Source: a phage. Taken from it: a stretch of 64,000 nt of DNA. Below the pieces are notes generated by a model. The model did no database searches. It was not told the origin of the DNA and worked only from the letters and a program-made list of their open reading frames with translations. Numbering within the stretch: position 1 is the first letter of the stretch; each line of letters starts with the position of its first letter. Of this stretch, positions 1,589-15,816 are shown piece after piece. The stretch is taken from the sequence record PZ212788.1; one strand, written 5' to 3'. The position numbers and the translations under genes are program-made.

Positions 1589-1597
1589 GGAGAAATC

Positions 1598-2266
1598 ATG
1601 GCTGTAGCTTATCCTACAATACCAATTCCAGATCTTGAAGATGCAGAAACAGTCCTGAGTGATGACTTCTTGGTTGTCAACCAGACTGATGGGACAAGAA
1701 AGGCTAAGATTGACGATGTTGTCAACGATCTTAGTATTACTAAGATAGTCTATTTCACAGAGGGTGGTTATCTTAAGAGCAAGAAGGACTTTGCTTATGA
1801 CCCAGAGACTAAGCGCTACTACACGTGGAACGGGGATTATCCTAAAATAATCCTCCCAGACTCCACCGTAGAGGGTGCTGGGGGCGTGTCTGCAAATGCC
1901 TGGTCTGTTTTTGGTGAGCTTGCTGCAACTTCTTCTGGCAGAATAGTTGATTACGGATCTATCGGTGGTCAGCTTGATATGGATCTTGAAGTTGCGGATA
2001 CCTTTAAGGTTCGACTAACTTCAAATACCACAATCTCTTTTGAAAATCAAACAGAAGGTCTTGAAGGGGTGGCGAGAACTATAACCGTATGCATTACTCA
2101 GACCTCTGGCGGCAACAAAGTCTATTGGCCTGGTAATGTTAAATGGTCCTACGGAAGAGATCCTATCCTAACATTTACAGCTGGTGCAACAGATATTTTC
2201 AAGTTGGAAACCTACGACAACGGGTTAACTTGGTACGGGGCACTGATTATCGCAGGAGCTATCTAA
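1598..2266 (+). CDS. tail fibre-related protein sharing an N-terminal anchor domain with the 4901-8713 fibre
   Basis: First ~100 aa align with the N-terminus of the 1270 aa fibre (LVVNQTDGTRKAKIDDVV vs LVVQQPDLTRRVKIGDVV; FTEGGYL...DFAY vs FKEGGKL...DFAY); AGGAG RBS. Confidence 0.5.
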   Translation: MAVAYPTIPIPDLEDAETVLSDDFLVVNQTDGTRKAKIDDVVNDLSITKIVYFTEGGYLKSKKDFAYDPETKRYYTWNGDYPKIILPDSTVEGAGGVSANAWSVFGELAATSSGRIVDYGSIGGQLDMDLEVADTFKVRLTSNTTISFENQTEGLEGVARTITVCITQTSGGNKVYWPGNVKWSYGRDPILTFTAGATDIFKLETYDNGLTWYGALIIAGAI

Positions 2267-2267
2267 G

Positions 2268-4865
2268 ATGCGTATTCAACATAACATTGATAACGTATTT
2301 CAGATGATTGAGGGGCACAGGAAGTGCCTCGATAACAACACAGGTATTACCAACACCTCTACACAAAATAAGCTAGTAAACCCTGATGGTCTTATAGCTG
2401 CAGGGTGGGCAGGTAATAAGATAAATAATGATTGGGCAATGCATGAGTCCCAAGCTGTGTTGATTCTGGGATACATTGAAGCATACAGGGCATCGAAAAG
2501 CGATTTCTATCTGGATAGGGCAAAAGATGCTTGGGAAGCTTACAATAGCCATCTTCTGGGTGCATATGCAGTAGAAAGTAAAATGCAAAGATTGTCCCAC
2601 TACCCTCTATCCACAGATGGGGTTCCATCACATGGTGGGTTTAAAGATGTGGTGGTGTCTTTTACCAACGGTAGAGGAAAAATCCCAGCTGGATCTCCGA
2701 CATGGGGGGAATACCTTGACAAGGCATTCCAAGCGTATAACGGTGTGTTAGGAAGAAACACTGTAGACTCTGATGTTTACGGTGGCACAGATGCTAACCC
2801 AGATTGGACAACATCCGGATTAAGTTGGTGGGTTGAGTGGTACATAGCATGGGATGGTAACCGCTATTGGGCTAACGGTAGCATAGCCGACAGTGGTCAT
2901 ACGTCTGTAGAGTTCGGCACAATCCAATTACAAGATAAGGGTGTTACAGGCAGCCACAAGGTGACCTATTGTGTAAGATTACCTCAAGAGCAGGGCGGAT
3001 CGGTGATACCTGCAGGATCCCCTGTAATTGTAAATCCTATAAACGTGGTTGCAGATAATCAGGCCCCAGAGTTGGACGGGGAAGAAATGTGGTGTGACGC
3101 TTGTTATCAACTCTACACCTTGACAGGTGAGGAAAAGTATTACACCGCGTTTAAACAGTCTTACAACAAATTGCTTAATTTCAGTGATATAAACGCCTAC
3201 GACAAACTGTTTAGGAAGACCACGTTGATTAAGGCACCGTTTACAGATGGTACTTGCCTTGTTGCAGGAACAGTTCCTGCCATGAGCAGGGACAGTGACG
3301 GGTATATCAATTTTAGAATGAACGCACGCCAGCCTTGCGAAATAATTCAAAAAGGGACTACATACAAAATAGGCAGAGATGCTGAAATTGTTATGAATTT
3401 CGGAGGAGAAGGGGTTCTGTTCCAGCCACATTTCATCCTTAATGATGGCAACAATAACAAAAAACAGTACAGGATAGGGGTTCCTTTTGGAGGGGCAGAG
3501 GTAACAGAAATAGTTGCCAAGGTTACTGATTTCGTAGAGGTAGTTGGTAAAGACGGTAATCCGTATCTCTTACCTAAAGAGGAAAACATTGTCGTAAGCG
3601 GTGGCGCTAGTGTTAGTATGCAGTATGATACCGACATTTACAACCACTCTGACAACTTCACCCGTTGTAATATAGCAAGAGGTAAAGTAACTTTCAATTT
3701 TGGGAGAGAGATTTCTTTAAACTCAGTAACTTATCGATCAGATGATGAGATGGTAAGGGTCAAATTTCTTGACAAAGATAGGTGGTTATGGTATGCTGAT
3801 CTATATGCCACTAATGGACAATGGATAACAGAAACTCTTACTCTAGGAGATTTCAAACTAGATCCGACACAACCTCATCACACCGAAGAAGAGATTAAAC
3901 CTTTCTTTGCTAATCCTAAGGGGCTCACCTCTGTAGATTTCAGCCTAAGCGACAGGCAGATAGGTAATGGCTTGTTTGATCTGTACTGCGTAAACACGCT
4001 GCCGCAGTTCTATATTGCAGATAGGGATGCTTATCTGATCTGGTTTAGCGTATGGATGGCAAGCAAGACAGAATCAACCGCTAAGGTTGGTGATTGCTAT
4101 GTCAGAAACTACAAGCAAGGTGCATACAGGCACACACCAGGTGTGTTCCCTGCCGGAAAGGTGATAGATAAGGAAAACTATCTCTTAGAGGAAAGGCCAA
4201 ATTGGCCCTACCCTGGCATGCAATACCCAGCAGTCTACTGCATGGGTGCAGAAAACATAGATCGCCATAGATTGTCAAATACAATAGGCTTTCTGTATGA
4301 CTCTCAAGTCTGGTATAATAATACGTTTAAGACAGAGGGTCCAGTTGCCTCACGTTATGTATGGCAGAGAGGCAATGAAGGGTTGACTGGTTGGTGGGAG
4401 ATGGTAGATAACTCTAAGCTCCAGTCAAGATCTTTTGTTGCTGCGTGCCGCACAATATATGAGCTCAAGAAACATAAAGAACCTGTTGATGAAAGACTAT
4501 TCCTGTTCTGCCAGAAATGGGCATGGTTCCTCAACAGATTCCAGTCATCTCATTCAGGAAATCTGCCTACAGACTTTAACACCTCTGGGGGATATTCTTA
4601 TCAGGACAGAGGAGACAGGATGTGGGTGGTAGGTGAATGGCTTGCAGGTTGCTGCTGGCTAGGTCTGTGCGGGTATTCAGAGACAATACCTCAAATAGAT
4701 ATTGTTGTGGAAGCCTGTGTGAAGCTACTGCAAAAGCACCACTTCATTAATGGGGATAATATTTTAAACGGCTGCTGGGCAGTTTCTGATCCGGTAGGCT
4801 ATCACTCTGGCGAAATCCTTCGCGGTCTGGGCCTTTATGCTCAATACCGTGGATTGTACCTTTAA
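2268..4865 (+). CDS. large tail-associated protein, possible polysaccharide-degrading tailspike
   Basis: 865 aa ORF translationally coupled (TAAGATG) within the tail operon; no fibre-type N-terminal anchor; enzymatic nature is inference only. Confidence 0.3.
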   Translation: MRIQHNIDNVFQMIEGHRKCLDNNTGITNTSTQNKLVNPDGLIAAGWAGNKINNDWAMHESQAVLILGYIEAYRASKSDFYLDRAKDAWEAYNSHLLGAYAVESKMQRLSHYPLSTDGVPSHGGFKDVVVSFTNGRGKIPAGSPTWGEYLDKAFQAYNGVLGRNTVDSDVYGGTDANPDWTTSGLSWWVEWYIAWDGNRYWANGSIADSGHTSVEFGTIQLQDKGVTGSHKVTYCVRLPQEQGGSVIPAGSPVIVNPINVVADNQAPELDGEEMWCDACYQLYTLTGEEKYYTAFKQSYNKLLNFSDINAYDKLFRKTTLIKAPFTDGTCLVAGTVPAMSRDSDGYINFRMNARQPCEIIQKGTTYKIGRDAEIVMNFGGEGVLFQPHFILNDGNNNKKQYRIGVPFGGAEVTEIVAKVTDFVEVVGKDGNPYLLPKEENIVVSGGASVSMQYDTDIYNHSDNFTRCNIARGKVTFNFGREISLNSVTYRSDDEMVRVKFLDKDRWLWYADLYATNGQWITETLTLGDFKLDPTQPHHTEEEIKPFFANPKGLTSVDFSLSDRQIGNGLFDLYCVNTLPQFYIADRDAYLIWFSVWMASKTESTAKVGDCYVRNYKQGAYRHTPGVFPAGKVIDKENYLLEERPNWPYPGMQYPAVYCMGAENIDRHRLSNTIGFLYDSQVWYNNTFKTEGPVASRYVWQRGNEGLTGWWEMVDNSKLQSRSFVAACRTIYELKKHKEPVDERLFLFCQKWAWFLNRFQSSHSGNLPTDFNTSGGYSYQDRGDRMWVVGEWLAGCCWLGLCGYSETIPQIDIVVEACVKLLQKHHFINGDNILNGCWAVSDPVGYHSGEILRGLGLYAQYRGLYL

Positions 4866-4900
4866 CATAGGGGGCTGTTTGCCCCCTTTCAGGAGAAAGA

Positions 4901-7900
4901 ATGGCTGATATTAAAGTTGTCAGAATTGAATCTCTTCCTGCCACTACCGCAGTGACAGAGGATGATTACCTGGTTGTTCAACAACCAGACCTGACTCGTC
5001 GTGTAAAAATTGGCGATGTTGTCCATGTGGATGGGACTGTTTCTCATGTAATCTCCTTTAAGGAAGGTGGTAAGTTAAACGGCCCAATGGATTTTGCCTA
5101 CTTCGAAGAGGAAGACCTCTACCTGCGTTGGAAAGGCGAATTTCCACACACTGTTCCTGCACTGTCTTCACCGTACTCCGATGGTGGGATTACTGACGCT
5201 GCATGGATGGTATATACAGATCCGTCCTTAAGGGAGGAGCTGGAATCTACTATTGGCGCATCTATGATCATGACAGCCGAAGGGCAGTCTGTCCAGGATG
5301 TGATGGATGTTACGGTTCAGACAGCTAACGATGCTAAAGCACTTGCACAGCGGGTAGATTTTGGTACAGTACATACTGTAGGCGATGTTATTCACCTTGT
5401 CAACTTTGTGGGTCCTGCAGTTATTGAGGAGGGAAGAACCACCAACTACCCTTCCGTAGCAGCTGGTGAAAGATTTCTGAACGGTGTGGTATCTCGTCGT
5501 GATACTACAACTGTTGATGGTATTTTCCGTGGCGCTACCACCGGAGCCATGTACACCATTGCAGTAACCAACGGTGTAGCAACAACGAAAAGAATAGCAC
5601 TTCGTGATGAATTTAAACGCCTAGAGGCAAACAACCCAACAAGAACAGTTATCCGTGCTGGAGATGATTTAAATACGGCAGGGTACTTGCAGCTTGATGC
5701 AACAGGCCGTTGGGGTATGTGGAACCAACAAACAGCTTCGTGGCAACCTCTTGCTATAGAGCAAGGCGGCACAGGGGCTAGAGATGCCGCTGGAGTCCGT
5801 ATCAATATCGGTGCTTTCTATAAGCAACGTGCAGCCCTTGAGCCAAATTTCAATATCAATAACTTGACTGGTAATCAGGATGGTGTATACTATCAGCCAA
5901 TGACTGCTTATGCAACTGAGGCGAATGGTTACCCTGCAGGTTCTGGTGCGGGTCACTTGATTGTTTGGCAGAACAATGCTAACGGCGGTACAGGTTGTCG
6001 TCAGGAATACTATCCATTCTCTAACGTAGATGTTTGGTATTTGAGAACCTATCAGGCCAACACAAATCAGTGGACTGCATGGCAGCCGATGGTCAGACCT
6101 CGTAACGATGATACCTTCAGATCTCATATTGGCCTTGGTAAAAACAACTCGCCAGCCTTCGGGCACCTTTACTTAGCTCAATACTCGGGAGATGTTAAAT
6201 CGGCCTCAGGTATTCTCCATGGAGATAAATATAATACTGACGGTGTCCTTGAGCATGGATATAGGATCTATTCTGAGGTAAGAAACGACAATAAGGCTTG
6301 GTTGACAATCCACCTGCACAAAGGCGCAAAAGGATCTGAAACTCATAGATATTTAGGCTTCCGTGAGGATGGGGTCTTAGATTGTCCTAAATATATGCAG
6401 GTTGGTGATCTGAACGGTCAGATGGCAAACTGGGGACTTGGAGAATGGATCCGCAGTTCAGGAGCAGAAAGAGGTTTCTGGGGATCTAAGAAAGCCGCCA
6501 AGATGGTCATCTGGGATGGCGGTATGGACGAGCAAGGTGAAGGAACGCTTGAGTGGGGTGTTTATAACAACCGGAAAGCCAAATGGGAACCACTACCGAT
6601 AGCTTGTGGTGGTACCAGTGCCAGGACTGTAGGGGATGCTCAAGCACAATTCAGAATCCCTCTGGCAGCAGGTGCTAGACCATATGTAAACCTGCCTAGA
6701 ACTGCAGCTATGCAGGACGGTAAGTATTATCCTATTATCGTCAGAACTGACCCCAACTTTGCAGCAACTATCGGGACAGATTTAACCATTGTCACCAGAT
6801 CTTCTTCTGGCGGCGACCCAATGAACTGTGCTACACTACAGTGTCACTACAGAACTGGTGGCTGGACAGACAGAGGTGATTCTTTCCAAGGGGTTATTAA
6901 TTTCTACCAAAACGAGAAAGCAATCCTCGGATGTGTATCTCCAACCAGAGGTAAGCAGGAGTATGTTGCATTCTATGTAGAGGCACGTGCATTCCCTGTT
7001 ACAGTATATGCTGGCGCTACTGTAATAGAAGTGTCAACCAGGGAGGCTGATTGGCAGGTAGGCAACGTGACAGGTAACCAAGATGGTGTCAAGTTCTGTG
7101 CTCCTCTGGAATCTGCAGATTTGAGTCTTGCAATCAAAGGTGATGATGTAACAAACACCAGACCTCTGGTTGAGTTCAAAGGAACATCAGGTTTCTACAC
7201 TGGTGGTGGAACTATGTGGCACTACCTGGGGACTCCTGAACGCTATGCAGTGATGAGCAAAATGAACATGCCTAAAGTCGAGCTTTGGGCAGACGGTATT
7301 GACTACATTTGTCCTGGTAGTCAGACCACTAGAAAAGCACTGTTCTCTAACGCAGGGTTCCAAGCTGCATCGGAAGGAACAGAGGATCTGATCAACAACA
7401 CCTTTACCTCTAAATGTGGTAATGGTGCAAGACTGCAAGGCCAGGCAGAGTTCAGATCTACTCCGGAAGCTGGTCAAGTTATCGTTCGCGATGTTGTAGG
7501 TACAGCTCATAAGTTCTACAATTTCAACAAAGACGGCACATTTTTCCCTCCTGGAGGCTATGTTTGCCAGACAGGTGCTGACTGGAACAATCAGTTTGGT
7601 AATACAAACCCCTCCAAGATAATGGCTGGCAATGTCAACGGGCCGGAAGGTTCGATGGTTGTTGGTGGACTGTCTGTGGCGTTTTCTGGAAACTATGCTT
7701 TCCAAATGGCTGGTCGCCTTGATCAGTTATACACTAGGTCTATCGAAGGTGGTAACCATAGGGCATGGAACAAGGTTATTCAGCACCGTGGTCAAGGTCT
7801 GGGGACAGAAGACCTTAATGCCTACGATGGTAGCCGTGAAGGTTTCTATCACCAGGGTTCAAACGCTGACGCACTTGTAACAGATCGTCACTACCCTGCT

Positions 7901-8713
7901 CCGTACGCTGGTACACTGCTTGTTTACAAAAACACAGCTAACAGACCTCAAGGTTGTGTGCAGGAATATATCACCTATTTTGGTGACAGATATACTCGTG
8001 CTGGTAACTACGTTGGCGATGTCTTTACTTGGGAAGAATGGAGACACGATGCTGGTAAGGGCATCCAGTTAAGACCTAATTACACTTTTGGTGAAACCAG
8101 TAATCAACTGGAAATTCATATCGGTGCTAATGGTCTTCCCTCCAACGCAGATGGCTTACCTAAGGATGATGCTGTACTCCATTATTGGGGTAACGGCAGC
8201 ACAGGGGATCGTCCAAACGTGTTAGAGTTTAAGGTTCGTGACGAGTCTCAAGCAAATTGGGTATGGCATTGCGGTACCTTGCCGGATAAATCAAGATATC
8301 TTTCTGTAAACGGTGCTGTGAATTGCACATCTGTCAATCAGAGTTCTGACAGAGACCTGAAAGATAACATAGCTGTTATTCCTGATGCGTTAGAAGCTAT
8401 CCGGAAGATGAAGGGTTATACTTACACTCTTAAAGAGAACGGTATGCCTTATGCAGGTGTTATAGCACAAGAGGTGCTTGAAGCGCTGCCGGAAGCAGTT
8501 AGCTCTTTCGTGCAAAGAAAGGAAATCCCAAACCCTGATCAGGATGGAACTCCTTTAGTAACAGAGGAAAGATTCTACAGCGTGGATTACGCAGCCGTAA
8601 CAGGCTTGCTTGTCCAGGTTTGCAGGGAACAGGACGATAAAATAACCGCCCTTGAGGAGCAGGTTAAAAAATTGACAGAGGTTGTTACTGGGTTGCAAGA
8701 GAAACTTAAGTAA
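4901..8713 (+). CDS. long tail fibre with C-terminal intramolecular chaperone (peptidase S74-like) domain
   Basis: 1270 aa; C-terminus ...DLKDNIAVIPDALEAIRKMKGYTYTLKENGMPYAGVIAQEVLEALPEAV... followed by a coiled coil matches the endosialidase/T5 pb1-type autoproteolytic chaperone; N-terminal anchor shared with 1598 ORF. Confidence 0.7.
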   Translation: MADIKVVRIESLPATTAVTEDDYLVVQQPDLTRRVKIGDVVHVDGTVSHVISFKEGGKLNGPMDFAYFEEEDLYLRWKGEFPHTVPALSSPYSDGGITDAAWMVYTDPSLREELESTIGASMIMTAEGQSVQDVMDVTVQTANDAKALAQRVDFGTVHTVGDVIHLVNFVGPAVIEEGRTTNYPSVAAGERFLNGVVSRRDTTTVDGIFRGATTGAMYTIAVTNGVATTKRIALRDEFKRLEANNPTRTVIRAGDDLNTAGYLQLDATGRWGMWNQQTASWQPLAIEQGGTGARDAAGVRINIGAFYKQRAALEPNFNINNLTGNQDGVYYQPMTAYATEANGYPAGSGAGHLIVWQNNANGGTGCRQEYYPFSNVDVWYLRTYQANTNQWTAWQPMVRPRNDDTFRSHIGLGKNNSPAFGHLYLAQYSGDVKSASGILHGDKYNTDGVLEHGYRIYSEVRNDNKAWLTIHLHKGAKGSETHRYLGFREDGVLDCPKYMQVGDLNGQMANWGLGEWIRSSGAERGFWGSKKAAKMVIWDGGMDEQGEGTLEWGVYNNRKAKWEPLPIACGGTSARTVGDAQAQFRIPLAAGARPYVNLPRTAAMQDGKYYPIIVRTDPNFAATIGTDLTIVTRSSSGGDPMNCATLQCHYRTGGWTDRGDSFQGVINFYQNEKAILGCVSPTRGKQEYVAFYVEARAFPVTVYAGATVIEVSTREADWQVGNVTGNQDGVKFCAPLESADLSLAIKGDDVTNTRPLVEFKGTSGFYTGGGTMWHYLGTPERYAVMSKMNMPKVELWADGIDYICPGSQTTRKALFSNAGFQAASEGTEDLINNTFTSKCGNGARLQGQAEFRSTPEAGQVIVRDVVGTAHKFYNFNKDGTFFPPGGYVCQTGADWNNQFGNTNPSKIMAGNVNGPEGSMVVGGLSVAFSGNYAFQMAGRLDQLYTRSIEGGNHRAWNKVIQHRGQGLGTEDLNAYDGSREGFYHQGSNADALVTDRHYPAPYAGTLLVYKNTANRPQGCVQEYITYFGDRYTRAGNYVGDVFTWEEWRHDAGKGIQLRPNYTFGETSNQLEIHIGANGLPSNADGLPKDDAVLHYWGNGSTGDRPNVLEFKVRDESQANWVWHCGTLPDKSRYLSVNGAVNCTSVNQSSDRDLKDNIAVIPDALEAIRKMKGYTYTLKENGMPYAGVIAQEVLEALPEAVSSFVQRKEIPNPDQDGTPLVTEERFYSVDYAAVTGLLVQVCREQDDKITALEEQVKKLTEVVTGLQEKLK

Positions 8714-8812: not shown

Positions 8813-9403
8813 ATGTTTTTATGGGAAAGGCCTAGATACCTTCCAGATATTAGATTAGAGCTGCTGGCAGATATTGTTACGTTTAAAAGTCCGTTTACAG
8901 GTAAAACGCAAAAAGTAACCTATGCCACACCTAACTGGAAAGGCACTTTGACGGTCTCCAATATCAGCGAATCCCAGTTGCTAGAGCTTAAGAGCTTTGT
9001 TGATCAGGTGTATAAAGATGGGAACATCTTTCTCATTAAAACTTACGGTCACTCAGTAACAGCTAATGAGCCAATCGCCCTTGGGCCTACTGGTAACGAC
9101 GATTTTTTGAAGACGGTCGGGTGGGAGCCAAACAGAGACATAGCCAGAGCTGGAGATAAAATATCTGTCAATGATGAATTGAAAGTGGTAACAGCTCCAG
9201 TGCGTAGTGATGGTGTTGGGTCTGCTGTTATAGGCATATCTCCAAGACTTAGAAAACCTATTGCCGCAGGGGACACCATGAAGATAATAACTCAATCTCC
9301 GAAGGGTAGGTTTCATATCAGAGATATTTATAAAATTAAGCAAAAAGTCGATGCTATGCAAAAAGGTGATAATATAGTTATCAACTTCTTTGAGGATTTC
9401 TAA
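8813..9403 (+). CDS. minor tail protein (possibly lambda gpM-like)
   Basis: 196 aa; FLW...TLTVS...LLELKSF segments loosely resemble lambda gpM; first gene after promoter, upstream of K-like and J-like genes. Confidence 0.3.
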   Translation: MFLWERPRYLPDIRLELLADIVTFKSPFTGKTQKVTYATPNWKGTLTVSNISESQLLELKSFVDQVYKDGNIFLIKTYGHSVTANEPIALGPTGNDDFLKTVGWEPNRDIARAGDKISVNDELKVVTAPVRSDGVGSAVIGISPRLRKPIAAGDTMKIITQSPKGRFHIRDIYKIKQKVDAMQKGDNIVINFFEDF

Positions 9404-9404
9404 G

Positions 9405-9956
9405 ATGATCAGAGCGCCATTAGATAATTTATTTCTTGAAAAGCTGGAGCTTGATGGTGTTGAGATCTTAATTGCTGCAAAGCTGGAGCTACCGACAGGA
9501 ACTGTCAGGGTGTGCTCAGGCACTGGTGTTGTAGTAATTGAGGGGCAACATTTTATAGGGATAGGTGGATCAGCAACATTGACCGCTGTGTCTGAGAAAG
9601 ATGCCACCAACTTCGGATCTGTGGTAGCAACATTGAACGGGTTTGATCCTAAGTATGTAGGTGATCTGCTGAAGACGGAGTATTCTGGTTGTCGTGCCAC
9701 GTTGTACATTACCGCTATGGAGAATGGTTTGCCTGTTACAACTAATGGCTTGTTTGACGGACTTATAACAGATATGGCTATTCAGACAGGCGAGAATAGT
9801 GCTTTGTCCATATCCATCTCTTCCATCTTCAACAGCTGGTTAAGAGGTTTTCCTTATCGGTACACGGAGGAAAGCCACAGCTCAAGAAACGATAACGACA
9901 GATTTTTTAAATATGTGGATCAGGTGGCGAGCCGCCCGATCATTTGGGAGGTTTAA
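9405..9956 (+). CDS. minor tail protein (tail-tip assembly position, L-like by context)
   Basis: Start trimmed to ATG 9405 directly after upstream stop; positional analogue only, no sequence signature recognised. Confidence 0.3.
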   Translation: MIRAPLDNLFLEKLELDGVEILIAAKLELPTGTVRVCSGTGVVVIEGQHFIGIGGSATLTAVSEKDATNFGSVVATLNGFDPKYVGDLLKTEYSGCRATLYITAMENGLPVTTNGLFDGLITDMAIQTGENSALSISISSIFNSWLRGFPYRYTEESHSSRNDNDRFFKYVDQVASRPIIWEV

Positions 9957-10381
9957 TGAGCACACACCCTCGTTTAGTGGATTGGCAAGAAAGATTGTGG
10001 AAAGTGTTTGACGAAGAGGCCACCATACCTTTTGAATGGGGATTCCACGATTGTTGCACCTTTGCAGCTAAGTGTGTTGATGCCCAATACGGAACAGATT
10101 TTCTTTCTAACTTTGAAGGAACGTATAAAACAGAGTTGGAAAGCAAGAGATGGTGCATGCTTCATTTCAAAACCACACATCTGCCCACTATTTTTGATTT
10201 CTTTATGACTCGACTGGACACTCCTAAACAGGTTCAGCGTGGTGATATTGTTATTTTCGAAGGCCTGAACGGGCTCACCGCTGGTGTGTTCTGGAACAAC
10301 CAGATTTGGGCGAAAGGGGATAAAGGGGTCTTTATGTTCGACATGAAAGATTCTATCGTTGTTGATGTCTGGAGGTATTAA
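9956..10381 (+). CDS. NlpC/P60-like tail assembly protein (lambda gpK C-terminal domain-like)
   Basis: FHDCCTF (catalytic Cys context) and downstream GDIVIFEG resemble NlpC/P60 motifs; start trimmed to ATG 9956 with GGGAGG RBS; TAATG coupling to J-like gene. Confidence 0.5.
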   Translation: MSTHPRLVDWQERLWKVFDEEATIPFEWGFHDCCTFAAKCVDAQYGTDFLSNFEGTYKTELESKRWCMLHFKTTHLPTIFDFFMTRLDTPKQVQRGDIVIFEGLNGLTAGVFWNNQIWAKGDKGVFMFDMKDSIVVDVWRY

Positions 10382-13300
10382 TGCCAATTGCAATGATTGA
10401 TAACATCGTTGCTTCTGCAAGATCTTCAAGTTATGACTGGAACGCATCCAAGGCAGCTCTGGCTGACAGCCTGAACACTGTTACCACCAGAACTCTGGAT
10501 AAGATTTTTGAGGGCAACAAATCTTACAGAAGTCAGCAAGATAGACAAAAGCTTCTCAGATCTTCTGCTGCACCTTGCTCTGTAGTGTATGGGAAGACAC
10601 GCACATCTGGATTACTTGCGTTTTTGGAGCAGGACAGGGACAGGACCCTCCATTGTGCTATTGTTCTTGCCAATCATCCCCTGGAAGGTATAGAAGATAT
10701 ACTCATCGACGGTAATCCTATTTCCTCGTATGGAGATTTGATATCGTGGGAGCTACATAACGACAGAAAAACATCTGATCCTTTCATGGGTACACACTGC
10801 CCGTCGTGGTCACCAGACATGATAGGTAGAGGGATCAGTTGGCTACGTGCCAGCTTCAGGTTTGACCCTAACAAGTTCCCTTTTGGGTTGCCAAACGTTA
10901 CACTCGTCAAGGTTGGTAAAAAATGCTATGATCCTCGTATCAGTAAAGAGGTGTATACCAATAACGCGGCCTTGGTGATTCTAGACTATTTAAGAACGTA
11001 CCTTAAATGTCCTGACGAAACCATCAACTGGGAGTCCTTCAAGGAGGCTGCTAACATATGCGATGAGGCGGTAAGAAACGCGGACGGAACTAGTGAGCGC
11101 CGTTACACCATTAATGGTGAGTTCGATATGGATGAGGCCCCAGCAAGTATTATGGCAGAAATGCTGAAAGCTTGTGGTGCAGATCTCAGCTATGTAGCTG
11201 GTAAGTATGGACTGCTGGTAGGTGCATATTATGGTCCGGCAACAATGACACTGAGTGAGGACTGTGTCTGTGGTGAGGTTAAGATCTATCCGGAAGCCTC
11301 GTTTGACAAAAGATCCAACACAATAACTGGCAGATTCACCAGTCCGACTAAAGGGTATTCTGAAACAGATTTTCCATCAGTATTTGTCCCAGAGTGGATA
11401 GAGAAGGATGGAGAAAGAAAGATAATCGATATAGACTACCGCTTTGTTACCAGTCCTTACCAAGCTCAGCGTGTTTCTGCAATCTTCTTAAGACGTGCTA
11501 GAGCTGGCAGGATTATTGAAGTCACCTGCAATATGCGAGGTTTTAAATTTAAGCCTGGTAGTTACGTTACAATGGACCTTCCAAGTATTGGTATAGTGGG
11601 CCAAGAAATGAGGGTTCTTGAGTGGGAGTTCACTAAAAAGGGTGGTGTTAAGGTAAAACTTCGCCAAGATGCTAAAGAGTGGAATGATGCCACAGGGCAA
11701 CTTCCTGATTCCGGCGATGTAGATATTCCGATATCCCCGTCCGGTGTAGCTCAACCGCAAAACTTCAGATACTCCGTTCTCCAAGCTGGGGAAGTAACTC
11801 ACGGTGTTTTGGCTTGGGACAACGTTGGAACTTACGCTCAAAATATTGTGCAGGTAAGAAAGAACGGAGAGATTGTTTGGACAGCACAGACAGTTGAGCA
11901 GTTTGTCCGAGTAGAAGGCTTGACCAAAGGGTCATACACAGCAACCGTGGTTGCAACATCTTATAAAGGTGGTGTATCTCCAGAAGCCTACTGCGAGTTC
12001 AACATTCAAGCACCTGAAGCTCCTGTTTCTGTAGAAGTTAAGCAGGGATACTTTGCTATCACCTTGATTCCGCATAGTAGGGATTTAGCAAGTGTTAGCA
12101 CCCAGTATGACTTTTGGACATCCGGTATGACAAGGTTGCCAGACACCAGTGATGCAACCGTTACTTCAAAAGCCACCCGTATGGGTGTTGGTTCAACTTG
12201 GACATCTGAAGGTCTGCAGAACGATAAGATTTATTATTGGTATATTAGAACCACAAACGCTTTTGGTAGTTCTCAGTTTGTAGAATGCGCTGCACGCTGC
12301 TACACCTCTATTGAGGATTTGATGCCTCAGATAGATGCTGAATTCAAAAAGACAGAAACTTATAAAGAGTTGATGAGTACTTTGGATTCCTCTATTGAAG
12401 AGGTTGAAAATCGTGTCACAGAACTTAACAGGTACATGGATGGTAGGGTAGATGAAGCGTTCCAGCAACTTGGGGACAGAATAGGTGCGGTAGTTACAGA
12501 AACAACTCAGAAGTTTGAAGATGTCAATGGTAACATTACAGCGCTGGATAGGAAACTTGTTGCTGCACAGAACAAATTCACCAACGATCTGAACACTGAA
12601 AGTGGCAGACTGGCATCTCTGATCGAGACAACCAATAAAGCAACTACTGATCTTCTGAACAAAAAGACAGAGGCTTTAGATGAGAAATTGGTTGCCGCCA
12701 AAGGTGAGCTGGTAGAGCAGATAGAGGGAGTTGAGAGCGGGTATTTAGCCGGAGATAAAACTCTGGATGGTAAGATCAATACTCAGAGAACAGAACTTGA
12801 CGCAAGCATCTTGAGCACTAACCAGGCAACTGTGGATCTTTTGAACAGGACATCTGAAACTCTGGATCAAAAGATCAGTCAGACAAACGCGACGGTATCT
12901 AAAAACTATACCACCCTGGATGGCAAGATAACCACCGCAAAAACTGACCTCAACACCTTGATTGCCAATACCAACAAGGCCACCACTGACTTGTTGAATC
13001 AGAAAACATCTGCACTGTCAGAGCAGATAACTTCTGCACGTGGGGAGATTTCTACCAACAAGCAGGCGATTGATGCTTTGGATGGAAAACTGACTTCCAC
13101 AAAAACAGCGCTGGATGCTACAATTTCCGATACCAACAAAGCTACTGTGGACCTTATCAACGGCACAGCGTCAGCTATTCGTCAAGAACTTGCTGTTGCT
13201 AAGCAGGAGATCATTGATGATGTTGGGGATGTGTCCGAAATCAGGGCTGCAGTAGCTACAACATCTAAGGCTGTAACCGACTTAGAGGGTAAAGTAAATG

Positions 13301-14220
13301 CTCAATGGGGCACAAAAATACAGGTAGACTCCGCAGGGAATAAATATGTTGCAGGTATCCAGTTGGGGATGGAAGGGTCTGGAGGCCAAGTTCAATCCTA
13401 CTTCATGGTTAGTGCAAACAATTTTGCGGTATACAACCCTGGAAATGGAACAGCAACCCTTGCTTTCGCAATCAAGAACAACCAAGCGTTCTTGAAAGAT
13501 GCTTTTATAGAGAACGGGACGATTTCATCTGCCAAGATCGCACAAGAAATTTCGTCAAACAACTACGATGGCAACGGGTACCATAAATACGGTTGGTATA
13601 TTAACAAGAACGGGCACGCCCAATTTATGGATGTATGGGTGAAAGGCAACATCAACGCCAGTTCTGGTAACTTCACAGGGGCAGTTAACGCCACTAGTGG
13701 TACCTTCCGTGGGGATGTTTATGCCAATAATGGTAGCTTTAGGGGCACCATAGATGCAACTGGAGGTACCTTCCGTGGACGTGTAGAAGCTTCCGTTATC
13801 CGTGCTAACCAGTTCGAAGGTGCAATCGTTGCACATAGGACCTACGGTGACTGTTCTCCAGTGTACAACTCGCAGCAAAGGGTTTGCCGTTGGAGGTGGA
13901 GATATGTGGACAACGTGCAAGGCCAAGGTAAGAACGTAACATTCTTCTTTAAACTGAATGGTACTCTTGCCAGCTCACAACTGAATGCATGGATAGCTGG
14001 TCATCAGATCCTTGCTGGCAAGAAGTATTTTAACGACAACAACGGCATGTGTGCGGTAGGGATAACAGGTCTGGGTGAACAAACTATAGACATTGTTATC
14101 GAGATTTACACACCGTGGTCAACGTCTAGCGTGACAGGTGTCACAATCTCCTGTCCTACTGTGATCGTTAGTCGTTCTAACTCAAGCTTCCAGGGACCTT
14201 GGAACGAGTCTCACGACTAA
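10381..14220 (+). CDS. central tail fibre / host specificity protein, lambda gpJ-like
   Basis: 1279 aa; colinear matches to lambda J (YFAITLIPH vs YFQITATPH; YYWYIRTTNAFGSSQFVE vs YYFYIRSVNTVGKSAFVE; KYVAGIQLGMEG vs HYVAGIGLSMED; SYFMVSANNFAVYNPGNG vs SQFLVAANRIAFIDPANG). Confidence 0.8.
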   Translation: MPIAMIDNIVASARSSSYDWNASKAALADSLNTVTTRTLDKIFEGNKSYRSQQDRQKLLRSSAAPCSVVYGKTRTSGLLAFLEQDRDRTLHCAIVLANHPLEGIEDILIDGNPISSYGDLISWELHNDRKTSDPFMGTHCPSWSPDMIGRGISWLRASFRFDPNKFPFGLPNVTLVKVGKKCYDPRISKEVYTNNAALVILDYLRTYLKCPDETINWESFKEAANICDEAVRNADGTSERRYTINGEFDMDEAPASIMAEMLKACGADLSYVAGKYGLLVGAYYGPATMTLSEDCVCGEVKIYPEASFDKRSNTITGRFTSPTKGYSETDFPSVFVPEWIEKDGERKIIDIDYRFVTSPYQAQRVSAIFLRRARAGRIIEVTCNMRGFKFKPGSYVTMDLPSIGIVGQEMRVLEWEFTKKGGVKVKLRQDAKEWNDATGQLPDSGDVDIPISPSGVAQPQNFRYSVLQAGEVTHGVLAWDNVGTYAQNIVQVRKNGEIVWTAQTVEQFVRVEGLTKGSYTATVVATSYKGGVSPEAYCEFNIQAPEAPVSVEVKQGYFAITLIPHSRDLASVSTQYDFWTSGMTRLPDTSDATVTSKATRMGVGSTWTSEGLQNDKIYYWYIRTTNAFGSSQFVECAARCYTSIEDLMPQIDAEFKKTETYKELMSTLDSSIEEVENRVTELNRYMDGRVDEAFQQLGDRIGAVVTETTQKFEDVNGNITALDRKLVAAQNKFTNDLNTESGRLASLIETTNKATTDLLNKKTEALDEKLVAAKGELVEQIEGVESGYLAGDKTLDGKINTQRTELDASILSTNQATVDLLNRTSETLDQKISQTNATVSKNYTTLDGKITTAKTDLNTLIANTNKATTDLLNQKTSALSEQITSARGEISTNKQAIDALDGKLTSTKTALDATISDTNKATVDLINGTASAIRQELAVAKQEIIDDVGDVSEIRAAVATTSKAVTDLEGKVNAQWGTKIQVDSAGNKYVAGIQLGMEGSGGQVQSYFMVSANNFAVYNPGNGTATLAFAIKNNQAFLKDAFIENGTISSAKIAQEISSNNYDGNGYHKYGWYINKNGHAQFMDVWVKGNINASSGNFTGAVNATSGTFRGDVYANNGSFRGTIDATGGTFRGRVEASVIRANQFEGAIVAHRTYGDCSPVYNSQQRVCRWRWRYVDNVQGQGKNVTFFFKLNGTLASSQLNAWIAGHQILAGKKYFNDNNGMCAVGITGLGEQTIDIVIEIYTPWSTSSVTGVTISCPTVIVSRSNSSFQGPWNESHD
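12530..13230 (+). repeat. intragenic tandem repeats (about 42 aa / 126 bp period) encoding a coiled-coil insert in the J-like fibre
   Basis: Recurring units ...LDGKI.T..T.L......TN.AT.DLLN..T..L...I... at least four times; not present in lambda J. Confidence 0.55.
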
Positions 14221-14227
14221 CCTTTAA

Positions 14228-14255
14228 AGCCCCGCTTCGGCGGGGTTTATTTTTA
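14228..14255 (+). terminator. rho-independent terminator (same family as 8721)
   Basis: agccccgc-ttcg-gcggggt followed by ttatttttat after the J-like stop. Confidence 0.7.
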
Positions 14256-14263
14256 TGCTCAGA

Positions 14264-14292
14264 TTGACTATTGTTACAAAATTTGGTAAAAT
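14264..14292 (+). promoter_or_regulatory. sigma70-like promoter with extended -10 (TTGACT-17-TGgTAAAAT)
   Basis: -35 TTGACT 14264-14269, spacer 17, TGG TAAAAT 14284-14292; near-identical spacer/-10 to promoter at 8753. Confidence 0.6.
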
Positions 14293-14325
14293 ACCTTGTA
14301 GAGATTTTCATACCGGAGGAGTGAC

Positions 14326-15816
14326 GTGGCTAAGTATGGATTGACAGAGGCTGGTTTCGTTATACCAACCCTAAATGACCTAATCGTTGAAACTAAGCAA
14401 AGCCTGATCCGTGCTTTTGGCGAAAACTTCAACGTACAGAGTAACTCCGTTGCAGATAAGCTGACCACTATCTTCAACGAGCGAGAGTATCAACTTATTC
14501 TTATGGCAGCATCTGTATACGCATCACAGACGCTGTATGGGGCAGAAGGTATCTACCTAGATGAGCTTCTTGGAAGACAGGGTATTTACCGAAGAGGCCG
14601 TTCTAAATCATCAGGTACCTGCCAGTTGACAATCAACACAACTGTGCCGTACAATATGATTTATGATTCCAAAACTTATACGCTGGACAGTGGCAACTTT
14701 GTTCTTAGCAACGATGTGCAAGTAGCAGGGAATCTTATTGCTCACAGAATAAATGCTCCAGACCTAAGGATTGGGAAATACAACTTCCAAATTACCAACC
14801 AGACAGATGGAAGTATCAAAACAAAAAGTCTGGTTTTAACAGATAAGTCTCTGGACTCTTCTGATTTGCCAAGCTTTTACGGAGAGATTAAGCAATTCAT
14901 TGTCGATAATACAACCCTGTTGAACGACGATTTGATTCAGGTCGATATGTTGACAGGAACGTTGTGGATAGGGTACAATTCGAATCTTGATCAAGTTGGA
15001 CTTAATAGTAGAGTAGATTTCAGAGTATCCCCGATTGTAGGGGAAAGAACTATCACCCTGGATGTTATCGCTAACGAGGCTGGTGAGCTGTCAAGAGAGG
15101 CAGAAACCGTGACAACAATGTCACCTACTCCCAGTGGATTTATCAAGCTTACCAACCGAGAAAGATTCAACGAGGGCAGGGATGTTGAGAAAGATTCCGA
15201 GTATCGCTTAAGAGCTTCCAGCACAAAACAGTTAACATCGAAGGCTACCCGTCCTGCAATCCTTAGCGCTGTAAGCGAGGTGAAAGGTGTTGAGAAAGTG
15301 AGAGTGTTCTCCAACAACACTGATAAAACTGATGCTAAAGGTATACCTCCTTACAAGTTCCAAGTGGTTGTGTTTGGTGGTGCAACGGAGGACATTTGCC
15401 AAGCACTTTACCAAACTATAGCCTGTACGAACAGGACTTATGGTAATATTTTCTACGATGTCACTACATCTGACGGTCAAACTGAAAGAATTTATTACTC
15501 CAAGGCAAATACCTACCGCCTAGATGTAAGAATTACCTATTCCGGCGCTGCGCTTTCCACAACCGAAAAAGATGCCATTGTAGAGGCTCTTTTGCAGGTT
15601 GTTAACGGACTGGATGTTGCAGATACGTTGTACAATATCCAATTGGTCGGTGCTGCATCCGCTGCTGTGTCGATAGGTAGATTTAATAGACTGGTAATTC
15701 AAGTTAAACCAGTAGGAGCTTCTGATGAAGCTTACACTACAAACGATATTGTTGCGAACATGACCGAGGTGTTTGACCTCGACGAAAGTAATATAACTTT
15801 CCAACAAACTATTTAA
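14326..15816 (+). CDS. baseplate J-like (gp6/P2 gpJ-like) wedge protein
   Basis: 496 aa; GTG start with GGAGGA RBS; domain order and C-terminal beta-rich segment resemble Baseplate_J proteins; assignment by motif impression only. Confidence 0.4.
   Translation: MAKYGLTEAGFVIPTLNDLIVETKQSLIRAFGENFNVQSNSVADKLTTIFNEREYQLILMAASVYASQTLYGAEGIYLDELLGRQGIYRRGRSKSSGTCQLTINTTVPYNMIYDSKTYTLDSGNFVLSNDVQVAGNLIAHRINAPDLRIGKYNFQITNQTDGSIKTKSLVLTDKSLDSSDLPSFYGEIKQFIVDNTTLLNDDLIQVDMLTGTLWIGYNSNLDQVGLNSRVDFRVSPIVGERTITLDVIANEAGELSREAETVTTMSPTPSGFIKLTNRERFNEGRDVEKDSEYRLRASSTKQLTSKATRPAILSAVSEVKGVEKVRVFSNNTDKTDAKGIPPYKFQVVVFGGATEDICQALYQTIACTNRTYGNIFYDVTTSDGQTERIYYSKANTYRLDVRITYSGAALSTTEKDAIVEALLQVVNGLDVADTLYNIQLVGAASAAVSIGRFNRLVIQVKPVGASDEAYTTNDIVANMTEVFDLDESNITFQQTI

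What the first reader, a model, noticed from the sequence alone, without database searches (positions are those of the whole stretch)
12530..13230. Coiled-coil tandem repeat insert in the lambda J-like central fibre
Between the J-like core and C-terminal region lies a block of at least four ~42 aa repeats (TN.AT.DLLN..T..L...I) absent from lambda J. Tandem repeats at DNA level can expand or contract by recombination, changing fibre length.
Basis: seen in the sequence. Interest (0 to 1): 0.45.

Follow-up and report, generated by a model that had tools for sequence, protein, structure and literature searches.

The report
Repeat-built coiled-coil shaft in J-like fibre
A tail-fibre protein of an rV5-like E. 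coli phage carries a roughly 330-residue three-stranded helical stalk built from old, diverged copies of a 44-residue unit, and related phages carry 2, 3, 4 or 6 copies, so the fibre comes in several lengths; it is a real but fairly ordinary variant of a known fibre design.

Summary
The repeat is real. In the 1279-aa lambda-J-like protein (window 10381-14220, the rV5 gp37 orthologue), the motif TN[KQ]AT[TV]DL occurs at aa 751, 813, 864 and 918, with a degenerate fifth copy at 961. Spacing is 62/51/54/43 aa, not 42.

The repeats lie in a proline-free block (aa 645-975) with a coherent 3.63-residue hydrophobic period. This block corresponds to lambda gpJ's short alpha-helical shaft between FNIII-2 and the beta-prism, lengthened by about 278 aa.

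There is no tandem repeat at DNA level: units share 44-59% nt identity and at most 10 identical bases in a row, so routine slippage is not supported.

Fibre length does vary among relatives. Vequintavirus genomes carry cassette alleles with 3 units (FFH2-type, 1199 aa), 4 units (this window) and 6 units (ECP32-type, 1381 aa). Flanks are 92-100% identical. One isolate has an exact 315-nt in-frame deletion between motif copies 2 and 4.

Within an allele class the shaft is under strong purifying selection.

Most likely it is a length-setting trimeric coiled-coil stalk. Its prism-proximal end is homologous to the fold-switching shaft of F-type pyocins. Long shafts in J-like fibres are already known, so novelty is modest.

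The parts
10381..14220 (+). Gene for the 1279-aa lambda-J-family fibre protein, the orthologue of rV5 gp37
   Evidence: ORF list and translation. It is 95-99.5% nt identical to Vequintavirus genes, including rV5 gp037 'central tail fiber J'. It matches phrog_31 'central tail fiber J' at E = 5e-163. rV5 gp37 was detected in virions by mass spectrometry (PMC3606486).
11857..12336 (+). Two Ig/FNIII-like domains (Ig_J aa 493-545; Ig_J_second aa 547-652) that precede the shaft
   Evidence: Pfam: Ig_J_second at E = 1.4e-30. Ig_J scores 24.7 bits, below its 29-bit cut-off. The region aligns to lambda gpJ 666-844.
12313..13305 (+). Alpha-helical coiled-coil shaft, aa 645-975: the whole helical block that contains the repeats
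   Evidence: There is no proline between aa 650 and 980. A single hydrophobic-moment peak lies at 3.62-3.64 residues, with power 198 against a shuffle maximum of 127. The AF2 monomer model is helical over aa 644-976, with breaks only at aa 789-793 and 949-950; mean pLDDT is 62.5. By position it is equivalent to the lambda gpJ alpha-helical shaft.
12499..12630 (+). Unit 0 (aa 707-750, 44 aa): a degenerate repeat unit starting TTQKFEDVNG
   Evidence: Read from the translation and the unit alignment. Assigned by eye.
12631..12816 (+). Unit 1 (aa 751-812, 62 aa), starting TNKATTDLLN
   Evidence: Motif positions.
12724..12771 (+). Gly/acid-rich segment EGVESGYLAGDKTLDG (aa 782-797) inside unit 1: a possible kink
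   Evidence: It holds the only internal helix break and the lowest pLDDT in the AF2 model, at aa 789-793. The FFH2-type allele lacks 18 residues here (aa 788-805). The comparison with the G955 kink that docks side fibres on the F2 pyocin shaft is inference only.
12817..12969 (+). Unit 2 (aa 813-863, 51 aa), starting TNQATVDLLN
12970..13131 (+). Unit 3 (aa 864-917, 54 aa), starting TNKATTDLLN
   Evidence: This unit is replaced by ECP32-like sequence in phage Aya.
13132..13260 (+). Unit 4 (aa 918-960, 43 aa), starting TNKATVDLIN: the conserved, non-variable unit next to the prism
   Evidence: It holds 3 of the 7 full matches to the SxSxxMxxLxS pattern, at aa 921, 929 and 949; a fourth, at aa 960, begins on its last residue.
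13261..13305 (+). Junction motif TSKAVTDLEGKVNAQ (aa 961-975): a degenerate fifth copy conserved across the family
   Evidence: It aligns to F2 pyocin TTSQAVTSLDGNVKA and lambda FSKEWKDASDKWNA.
12824..13138 (+). 315-nt segment (105 aa, two units) deleted exactly and in frame in E. coli O157 typing phage 14
   Evidence: Pairwise alignment with KP869112.1. The junction lies inside motif copies 2 and 4, with 8 nt of exact microhomology (ACTGTGGA).
13249..13671 (+). Phage_Tail_Tip (PF09327) beta-prism domain, aa 957-1097
   Evidence: Pfam E = 1.2e-38. It aligns to lambda gpJ 844-991, the F2 pyocin fibre and T1 gp33.
13672..14217 (+). Distal C-terminal region, aa 1098-1279. It includes a 4 x 11-aa repeat (aa 1092-1135) and is nearly invariant among the allele classes
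   Evidence: Translation, DNA repeat D3 and the three-allele alignment.
8813..10381 (+). Upstream lambda-like tip module: distal tail protein (8813-9403), tail protein (9405-9956) and a DUF6950 protein (9956-10381)
   Evidence: phrog_1302, phrog_2048 and phrog_2134; PF22262; the same gene order occurs in rV5 gp40-gp38.

Best explanation
The block is the alpha-helical shaft of a lambda-J-family fibre protein. It is most likely a parallel three-stranded coiled coil between the last Ig/FNIII domain and the C-terminal beta-prism. In lambda this linker is about 44 residues. Here it is 323 residues.

The extra length came from old serial duplication of a roughly 44-residue unit made of four 11-residue hendecads. 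That unit is a paralogue of the conserved shaft/prism junction motif. The 3.63-residue hydrophobic period predicts a nearly straight rod of about 48 nm that sets how far the distal beta-prism and tip are held from the hub.

The shaft exists in the Vequintavirus population as a few deeply diverged, internally conserved cassette alleles with 3, 4 or 6 units, plus one 2-unit deletion derivative. These alleles move between genomes by homologous recombination in the near-identical flanks, which gives predicted shafts of about 32, 36, 48 and 63 nm.

Shown here: the repeats, the helical periodicity, homology of both flanks to lambda J, the allele classes and the deletion. Inferred: the trimeric state, rod geometry and length-setting role. 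Also inferred: by homology, the last roughly 55-100 residues may refold into beta-prism on triggering, as in lambda gpJ 841-861 and F-type pyocins.
For: Repeats and their statistics.

Flanking domains and the 278-aa excess over lambda J.

Helical character:
- No proline, and a single coherent 3.62-3.64 period with power 198 against a shuffle maximum of 127.
- The AF2 monomer model is helical over aa 644-976.
- Lambda gpJ has a three-helix alpha-helical shaft at this position (PMC11101478).
- The F2 pyocin shaft is a solved three-stranded coiled coil, and phmmer aligns it to aa 873-1075 at E = 2e-16.
- AlphaFold-multimer models of BASEL Vequintavirinae fibres include a class with 'large coiled-coil domains' and a central-fibre-like N-terminus (PMC12143355).

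Allele classes and mosaic boundaries.

Census: about 58 records rV5-type, 43 FFH2-type, 13 ECP32-type.

Cassette type is incongruent with flank similarity. rV5 is 97.9% identical to FFH2 in the 5' 1.9 kb, while some FFH2-type carriers are only 96.3-96.7%, yet all FFH2-type cassettes are at least 99% identical to each other.

The 315-nt deletion at the motifs.

Purifying selection in the shaft within a class: 35 synonymous and 0 non-synonymous codon changes against AlexBoehm, and 32 and 2 against rV5.

Family survey: FNIII-to-prism linkers run from 43 aa to about 480 aa without proline.
Against: - There is no experimental or multimer structure for this protein. The AF2 run was a monomer with a 5-sequence alignment and low confidence (pLDDT 62.5).
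- The block is Thr-rich (13.9%). Its Chou-Fasman alpha and beta propensities are about equal, and its hydrophobic core is sparse. A beta-prism native state or marginal stability therefore cannot be excluded.
- Where this J-like protein sits in a contractile-tailed virion is unknown. Cryo-EM of two BASEL Vequintavirinae located only three of nine annotated fibres.
- Strong purifying selection within allele classes argues that the shaft is more than a passive spacer.
Confidence: 0.72

Rival explanations
1. The whole 320-residue block is a metastable 'spring'. It is assembled as a trimeric coiled coil and refolds into a beta-prism on receptor contact, as the 163-residue shaft of the F7 pyocin central fibre does. 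Unit number would then tune the stroke or stored energy rather than only the reach.
For: - He et al. [quoted passage not shown] They predict it in 21 of 24 siphophage central fibre proteins, with an 11-residue pattern per strand and a beta-prism seed just downstream.
- Here the shaft abuts the same Phage_Tail_Tip prism and has hendecad-type periodicity.
- It is homologous to the F2 pyocin shaft over its last 100 aa or so.
- It is Thr-rich, with beta propensity equal to alpha propensity.
- It is under tight purifying selection.
- Lambda gpJ 841-861 also converts from helix on LamB binding.
Against: - The SxSxxMxxLxS pattern is not enriched over the whole block: 7 full matches against 4.9 +/- 2.2 in shuffles, P = 0.2. 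Five of the seven matches lie in aa 921-974, so at most the conserved last unit fits.
- The pyocin 'small' positions are mostly Ala; here Thr dominates.
- The host phage has a contractile tail and so does not need this energy source.
- The first 20-60 residues of such shafts do not switch even in the pyocin family.
- Two-state prediction could not be run, because no deep alignment was obtainable.
Confidence: 0.22
2. The repeated motif, or the Gly/acid-rich segment at aa 782-797, is a docking site for other fibre proteins. Unit number would then set how many side fibres, or which ones, are carried on the shaft.
For: - In F2 and F7 pyocins, three trimeric side fibres attach to a negatively charged kink of the shaft (G955; Asp950-961).
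- This phage group carries many fibre types.
- The segment EGVESGYLAGDKTLDG is the only predicted helix break, and 18 residues are missing here (aa 788-805) in the FFH2-type allele.
- Strong sequence conservation within allele classes.
Against: - No partner has been identified.
- The other strongly variable fibre gene (window 4901-8713) assorts independently of the shaft cassette, so no co-variation supports a partner.
- The similarity to the pyocin kink is positional and compositional only.
Confidence: 0.15
3. The block is a DNA-level tandem repeat that acts as a high-frequency contingency locus, expanding and contracting by homologous recombination or slippage.
For: - Copy number differs among relatives.
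- One deletion is bounded by two motif copies.
Against: - Tandem Repeats Finder finds no array.
- Units are 44-59% nt identical, with at most 10 nt of exact identity.
- 71 of 72 records of this allele class have identical length.
- All 43 FFH2-type cassettes have one length and are at least 99% identical.
- Length classes differ by 25-57% at the protein level, so they are old alleles rather than recent slippage products.
Confidence: 0.03

Closest known systems
Alpha-helical shaft (AHS) of bacteriophage lambda gpJ (PDB 8iyk, 8xcj; PMC11101478)
   Same: - It occupies the same position, between FNIII-2 and the beta-prism 'central straight fibre'.
- Both flanks are homologous: aa 497-678 align to lambda 666-844, and aa 957-1116 to lambda 844-991.
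- It is a three-helix bundle.
   Different: - The lambda linker is about 44 residues, against 323 here, and lambda has no internal repeats.
- The lambda C-terminal LamB-binding domain is not matched.
- Lambda has a non-contractile tail; this phage is a myovirus.
Extended coiled-coil shaft of F-type pyocin central fibre proteins (F2: PDB 25vf, PMC13455828; F7: PMC12874032)
   Same: - It is a long three-stranded coiled coil directly upstream of a Phage_Tail_Tip-type prism.
- Sequence homology reaches about 100 residues into the shaft (phmmer E = 2e-16).
- The TTS(K/Q)AVT.L(E/D)G junction motif is conserved.
   Different: - The pyocin shaft is about 163 residues, Ala-rich and not built of recognisable TN.AT.DL units.
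- Its fold switch and side-fibre docking are shown experimentally; here both are only inferred.
- The fold-switch motif is not enriched over the variable units.
Phage T1 central fibre protein gp33 (PDB 9l9p; PMC11945409) and other long-shaft J-like fibres (RBPseg classes TC5/TC9, PMC12143355)
   Same: - These are J-family proteins whose region between FNIII and prism is much longer than in lambda.
- T1 gp33 also contains a tandem repeat in this region.
- RBPseg notes coiled coils 'of varying lengths' in J-like fibres, and a Vequintavirinae fibre with large coiled-coil domains.
   Different: - The T1 repeat is near-exact and has a different sequence.
- The unit-number polymorphism and cassette exchange described here were not reported in the papers read.
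Hendecad (11-residue) coiled coils
   Same: The hydrophobic period of 3.62-3.64 lies close to 11/3, and the 44-aa unit divides into four a-d-e-h hendecads (the register was assigned by eye).
   Different: - Heptad insertions give units of 43-62 aa.
- Thr occupies several core positions.
- The oligomeric state and handedness were not determined.

Membership tests
Lambda gpJ / 'central tail fiber J' family (phrog_31) | Overall profile match to the family | tested here: met
   phrog_31 at E = 5.3e-163, covering aa 143-1144. phmmer to lambda gpJ 8iyk_J at E = 1.6e-28.
Lambda gpJ / 'central tail fiber J' family (phrog_31) | N-terminal hub domains (Phage-tail_3 / COG4733, gp27-like) | tested here: inconclusive
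   Pfam Phage-tail_3 reaches only E = 0.074, or 13.4 bits against a cut-off of 23. The rV5 paper reports COG4733 and HHpred hits to Mu-type hub proteins.
Lambda gpJ / 'central tail fiber J' family (phrog_31) | Two Ig/FNIII domains followed by the Phage_Tail_Tip beta-prism | tested here: met
   Ig_J_second at E = 1.4e-30 and Phage_Tail_Tip at E = 1.2e-38. The first Ig_J domain is below its cut-off, at 24.7 against 29 bits.
Lambda gpJ / 'central tail fiber J' family (phrog_31) | A trimer closing the tip of a non-contractile tail, with a Dit/gpL/gpI-type module | not testable with these tools
   A Dit-like gene and two small tip-module genes lie upstream. However, the phage is a myovirus, and the location of the protein in the particle is unknown.
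Fold-switching coiled coil of F-pyocin-type central fibre proteins | A long coiled coil immediately N-terminal to a beta-prism seed, homologous to the pyocin shaft | tested here: met
   Helical periodicity over aa 645-975. The F2 pyocin fibre aligns from aa 873 into the prism at E = 2.2e-16.
Fold-switching coiled coil of F-pyocin-type central fibre proteins | SxSxxMxxLxS pattern in each future strand | tested here: inconclusive
   There are 7 full matches against 4.9 +/- 2.2 in 2000 shuffles (P = 0.2). Five of the seven fall in aa 921-974.
Fold-switching coiled coil of F-pyocin-type central fibre proteins | Two alternative folds, either predicted (deep versus shallow alignment) or observed | not testable with these tools
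   Only a monomer AF2 run with 5 sequences was possible, and it was all helix. A deep alignment could not be assembled.
DNA tandem repeat / contingency locus | Head-to-tail DNA copies similar enough for slippage or homologous recombination | tested here: not met
   Tandem Repeats Finder finds none. Unit cores are 44-59% nt identical with exact runs of 10 nt or less.
Protein-level tandem repeat | Significant self-similarity at a defined spacing | tested here: met
   Autocorrelation z = 5.5-6.9 at lags 51, 54, 62 and 105, against a shuffle maximum of 4.9. The 8-residue motif occurs four times. Units are 33-51% aa identical.
Hendecad-type coiled coil | A hydrophobic period near 3.67 rather than 3.5, kept in phase over the segment | tested here: met
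   The peak lies at 3.62-3.64 over 331 residues. Sliding windows give 3.57-3.68 for windows starting at aa 643-907, and about 3.5 only in the windows starting at aa 621 and 929.

The most novel reading that the evidence does not exclude
The hendecad shaft is a modular, cassette-exchangeable fold-switch element working in a contractile-tailed phage. [quoted passage not shown] The population would keep a few co-adapted 'spring' alleles. This would extend the F-pyocin fold-switch mechanism beyond non-contractile tails and give natural length variants with which to test it.
Probability: 0.12. Interest if true: 0.7.

Novelty: new member of a known kind. Interest (0 to 1): 0.38.

Why it matters
The BASEL study flagged this gene as one of two with 'very strong allelic variation' in Vequintavirinae and read the variation as receptor contact. 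The analysis here shows that the variation lies almost entirely in the shaft, while the distal 300 residues stay 87-100% identical. What varies between these widely used therapeutic-candidate phages is therefore fibre length or shaft type, not the tip. The natural 2-, 3-, 4- and 6-unit alleles, in otherwise near-identical proteins, form a ready-made series. They could be used to test how shaft length affects adsorption through O-antigen or capsule layers. They could also test whether the coiled-coil to beta-prism switch recently shown for F-type pyocins operates in a J-like fibre of a myovirus.

Tried and rejected
- **Word-indexed protein searches.** Searching with the shaft and with the last unit plus prism returned only 5-6 hits, because low-complexity words saturated the candidate list. 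No deep alignment for two-state structure prediction could be built.
- **Structure prediction with the allele alignment.** The permitted run was a shallow monomer model of low confidence, used only for secondary structure.
- **Strict scan for the pyocin fold-switch pattern.** The result was not significant over the whole block.
- **Co-variation with the other hypervariable fibre gene (window 4901-8713).** None was found; the two loci assort independently.
- **The phi92 structure paper.** It mentions no J-like protein and gives no location for this fibre.
- **Chance or low-complexity artefact.** Rejected on the shuffle statistics and on conservation of the units across alleles.
- **DNA slippage locus.** Rejected.
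Full report
**What the window is.** The finding lies in ORF 10381..14220 on the + strand, which encodes 1279 aa. The gene is 95-99.5% nt identical to genes of rV5-like E. coli myoviruses (genus Vequintavirus). These include rV5 gp037, annotated 'central tail fiber J'. Pfam finds Ig_J (aa 493-545, below cut-off), Ig_J_second (aa 547-652, E = 1.4e-30) and Phage_Tail_Tip (aa 957-1097, E = 1.2e-38). PHROGs places the protein in phrog_31 'central tail fiber J' at E = 5e-163. rV5 gp37 has been detected in virions by mass spectrometry (PMC3606486). Upstream lie a Dit-like gene, a tail protein gene and a DUF6950 gene. Downstream lies a Baseplate_J gene.

**Checking the observation.** The motif TN[KQ]AT[TV]DL occurs at aa 751, 813, 864 and 918, and a degenerate TSKAVTDL follows at aa 961. 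Spacing is therefore 62, 51, 54 and 43 aa, not about 42.
- BLOSUM62 autocorrelation of aa 641-960 peaks at lags 105, 54, 51 and 62, with z = 5.5-6.9. The largest z in 500 shuffles was 4.9. Further peaks fall at 7, 11, 18, 22, 29, 33 and 40.
- A 39-residue core around each motif is 33-51% identical between the four good copies.
- At DNA level, Tandem Repeats Finder reports nothing. The cores are 44-59% nt identical and share at most 10 identical bases in a row.
- The repeat is thus real and far beyond chance, but it is an old protein-level repeat rather than a DNA tandem array.

**Relation to lambda J.** phmmer against solved structures aligns aa 497-678 to lambda gpJ 666-844, and aa 957-1116 to gpJ 844-991. 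About 278 residues have no counterpart in lambda. The lambda structure paper describes gpJ as hub domains, two FNIII domains, an alpha-helical shaft (a three-helix bundle), a beta-sheet prism and a receptor-binding domain. Residues 841-861 of the shaft change secondary structure on LamB binding (PMC11101478). The block found here is therefore an expanded version of that shaft, not an element foreign to the family.

**Evidence that it is a coiled coil.**
- There is no proline between aa 650 and 980.
- The hydrophobicity spectrum of aa 645-975 has one dominant peak at 3.62-3.64 residues, with power 198. The 99th percentile of shuffles is 98 and the shuffle maximum is 127.
- 66-residue sliding windows starting at aa 643-907 give 3.57-3.68 throughout, and about 3.5 only in the windows starting at aa 621 and 929.
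- By eye, the 44-residue unit seen in relatives divides into four hendecads, with Leu/Ile at d/e and Thr or Leu at a/h.
- An AF2 monomer model is helical over aa 644-976, with breaks only at aa 789-793 and 949-950. It used a 5-sequence alignment and has mean pLDDT 62.5, so only the secondary structure is used here.
- A published AlphaFold-multimer atlas of BASEL fibres describes a Vequintavirinae fibre class with 'large coiled-coil domains', a central-fibre-like N-terminus and a beta-helical C-terminus. It also notes coiled coils 'of varying lengths' in J-like fibres (PMC12143355).
- The composition is unusual for a coiled coil. Thr makes up 13.9%, mean alpha and beta propensities are about equal, and strongly hydrophobic residues are sparse.

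**Variation among relatives.** A tblastn search with aa 641-1000 shows that Vequintavirus genomes fall into discrete classes. Alignment of representatives gives three classes:

| Allele class | Protein length | Motif copies | Spacing (aa) |
|---|---|---|---|
| FFH2-type | 1199 aa | 3 | 44/47/43 |
| rV5-type (this window) | 1279 aa | 4 | 62/51/54/43 |
| ECP32-type | 1381 aa | 6 | 44/44/62/51/54/43 |

- Each class also has the junction copy.
- Outside aa 650-975 or so, most 30-codon windows are 92-100% nt identical. A few dip to 80-89%, chiefly in the last 90 codons of ECP32.
- Inside that range, identity falls to 44-65% nt against FFH2-type, and to 52-78% nt against ECP32-type over aa 691-915.
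- All indels begin and end at the TN motif.
- Megablast census: about 58 records are rV5-type, 43 FFH2-type and 13 ECP32-type.

**Exchange and constraint of the cassettes.**
- Cassette type does not follow flank relatedness. rV5 is 97.9% identical to FFH2 over the 5' 1.9 kb, whereas some FFH2-type carriers are only 96.3-96.7% identical to it. Yet all 43 FFH2-type cassettes are at least 99% identical to each other. This indicates exchange by recombination in the conserved flanks.
- Phage Aya has rV5 length but an ECP32-like unit 3.
- Within the rV5-type class the shaft is tightly constrained. Synonymous against non-synonymous codon differences are 35 and 0 against AlexBoehm, 32 and 2 against rV5, and 67 and 8 against JEP1.

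**One direct contraction event.** E. coli O157 typing phage 14 (KP869112.1) carries an rV5-type allele of 1174 aa. It has an exact in-frame 315-nt deletion corresponding to window 12824-13138. The junction lies inside motif copies 2 and 4, where 8 nt (ACTGTGGA) are identical. Two units (105 aa) are removed, which matches the strongest autocorrelation lag. That record is a partial genome, so independent confirmation is desirable. It is the only one of 72 records of this class with a different length.

**Family context.** An exhaustive HMMER search with the prism domain found 1084 relatives at E of 0.001 or below. Among hits that also carry the FNIII-2 domain, the distance from FNIII-2 to the prism runs from 43 aa (lambda-like), through 72, 108, 129, 243, 299, 323, 397 and 484 aa, up to 2479 aa. 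Several of the 240-480-aa linkers contain no proline and show helical periodicity. The longest ones contain other domains. T1 gp33 (PDB 9l9p) has its own near-exact tandem repeat in this region. Its C-terminal part is predicted to protrude about 37 nm (PMC11945409). The TN.AT.DL unit itself was seen only in the rV5 lineage.

**Mechanism.** I commit to the following reading. This is a trimeric, nearly straight coiled-coil stalk that sets the reach of the distal prism and tip. At about 0.15 nm per residue, a textbook value, the FNIII-to-prism linkers of 218, 243, 323 and 425 aa predict shafts of about 32, 36, 48 and 63 nm. Two further roles are known for homologous shafts and are not excluded here.
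- **Fold switch.** In the F7 pyocin, the 163-residue coiled coil refolds into a beta-prism on target contact, and this refolding is required for killing. The same behaviour is predicted for many siphophage central fibre proteins, with an SxSxxMxxLxS pattern per strand (PMC12874032). phmmer aligns the F2 pyocin fibre to aa 873-1075 at E = 2e-16, including the conserved TTS(K/Q)AVT.L(E/D)G junction. A strict scan for the pattern is not enriched over the whole block (7 matches against 4.9 +/- 2.2, P = 0.2), but 5 of the 7 matches fall in aa 921-974. At most the invariant last unit therefore looks switch-competent on this test.
- **Side-fibre docking.** F2 and F7 pyocin side fibres dock on an acidic kink of the shaft. 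Here EGVESGYLAGDKTLDG (aa 782-797) is the only predicted helix break, and the FFH2-type allele lacks 18 residues at this point (aa 788-805). No partner is known, and the other hypervariable fibre gene assorts independently of the shaft cassette.

**Novelty.** The BASEL paper had already noted 'very strong allelic variation' at this gene and read it as contact with variable host structures. The refinement made here is that the variation is confined to the shaft, while the distal 300 residues are 87-100% identical. Long coiled-coil shafts in J-like fibres are already documented. I found no description of the unit architecture, the 2/3/4/6-unit polymorphism, the cassette exchange or the deletion at the motifs. 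These are details of a known kind of structure.

**Verdict.** The feature is real and ordinary in kind. It offers a useful natural length series and a speculative link to fold switching in a contractile-tailed phage.

Noticed in passing
window 13654-13785 (aa 1092-1135 of the same gene): A second repeat array lies in the distal region: four 11-aa units (NASSGNFTGAV / NATSGTFRGDV / YANNGSFRGTI / DATGGTFRGRV). The first two units are 73% nt identical (family D3). Metagenomic proteins of 1500-2300 aa match this stretch 15-17 times (P0010-P0013).
   Followed up: partly
window 4901-8713: The neighbouring 1270-aa fibre gene (the rV5 gp41 homologue, with Tail_spike_N and Peptidase_S74 chaperone domains) has its own allelic mosaic. 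Its 3' 23% is replaced in many relatives. It assorts independently of the J shaft cassette. For example, Phage 206 is 99.5% identical in the J gene but only 86.5% identical over 88% of this gene.
   Followed up: partly
window 8813-15816: A lambda/siphovirus-type tip module (Dit-like, phrog_2048 tail protein, DUF6950 and J-like) sits inside the baseplate gene cluster of a contractile-tailed phage, directly upstream of a Baseplate_J gene. Where this module sits in the myovirus particle appears to be unknown.
   Followed up: partly
GenBank MG0656xx records (e.g. MG065655, MG065658, MG065677): Eighteen records named 'Campylobacter phage', with host Campylobacter jejuni, are 95-98% identical to E. 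coli rV5-like phages across this gene. They carry all three shaft alleles. The host labels are probably wrong or reflect contamination.
   Followed up: no
L004:1581-5181 (Escherichia phage vB_Eco_Alma, OV101294.1): The J-like gene is annotated as two overlapping CDS (1581-3923 and 3910-5181). The match to the FFH2-type cassette spans 740 nt against a 739-nt query, which suggests a 1-nt indel inside the coiled-coil region. This is either a sequencing error or a pseudogene.
   Followed up: partly
L006:1307-5146 (Vequintavirinae sp. EcoIv14a_Aya, OX460980.1): This allele has rV5 length (1279 aa), but its unit 3 (about aa 850-917) carries ECP32-type sequence. It is a recombinant within the shaft itself.
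   Followed up: partly
Proteins P0016, P0022, P0028, P0039, P0076 and others: Giant metagenomic proteins of 2000-4800 aa carry the same tail-tip prism domain near the C-terminus. In those that also have the FNIII-2 domain, the linker between the two domains reaches 2479 aa and contains additional, non-helical domains.
   Followed up: partly
PDB 9l9p_S (phage T1 gp33), residues ~930-1000: The T1 central fibre protein has a near-exact tandem duplication (…ATETEALSREIDQLKAQIGDDIQASLTDIRE… twice) in the region upstream of its prism. Repeat-built shafts therefore recur in the family.
   Followed up: no
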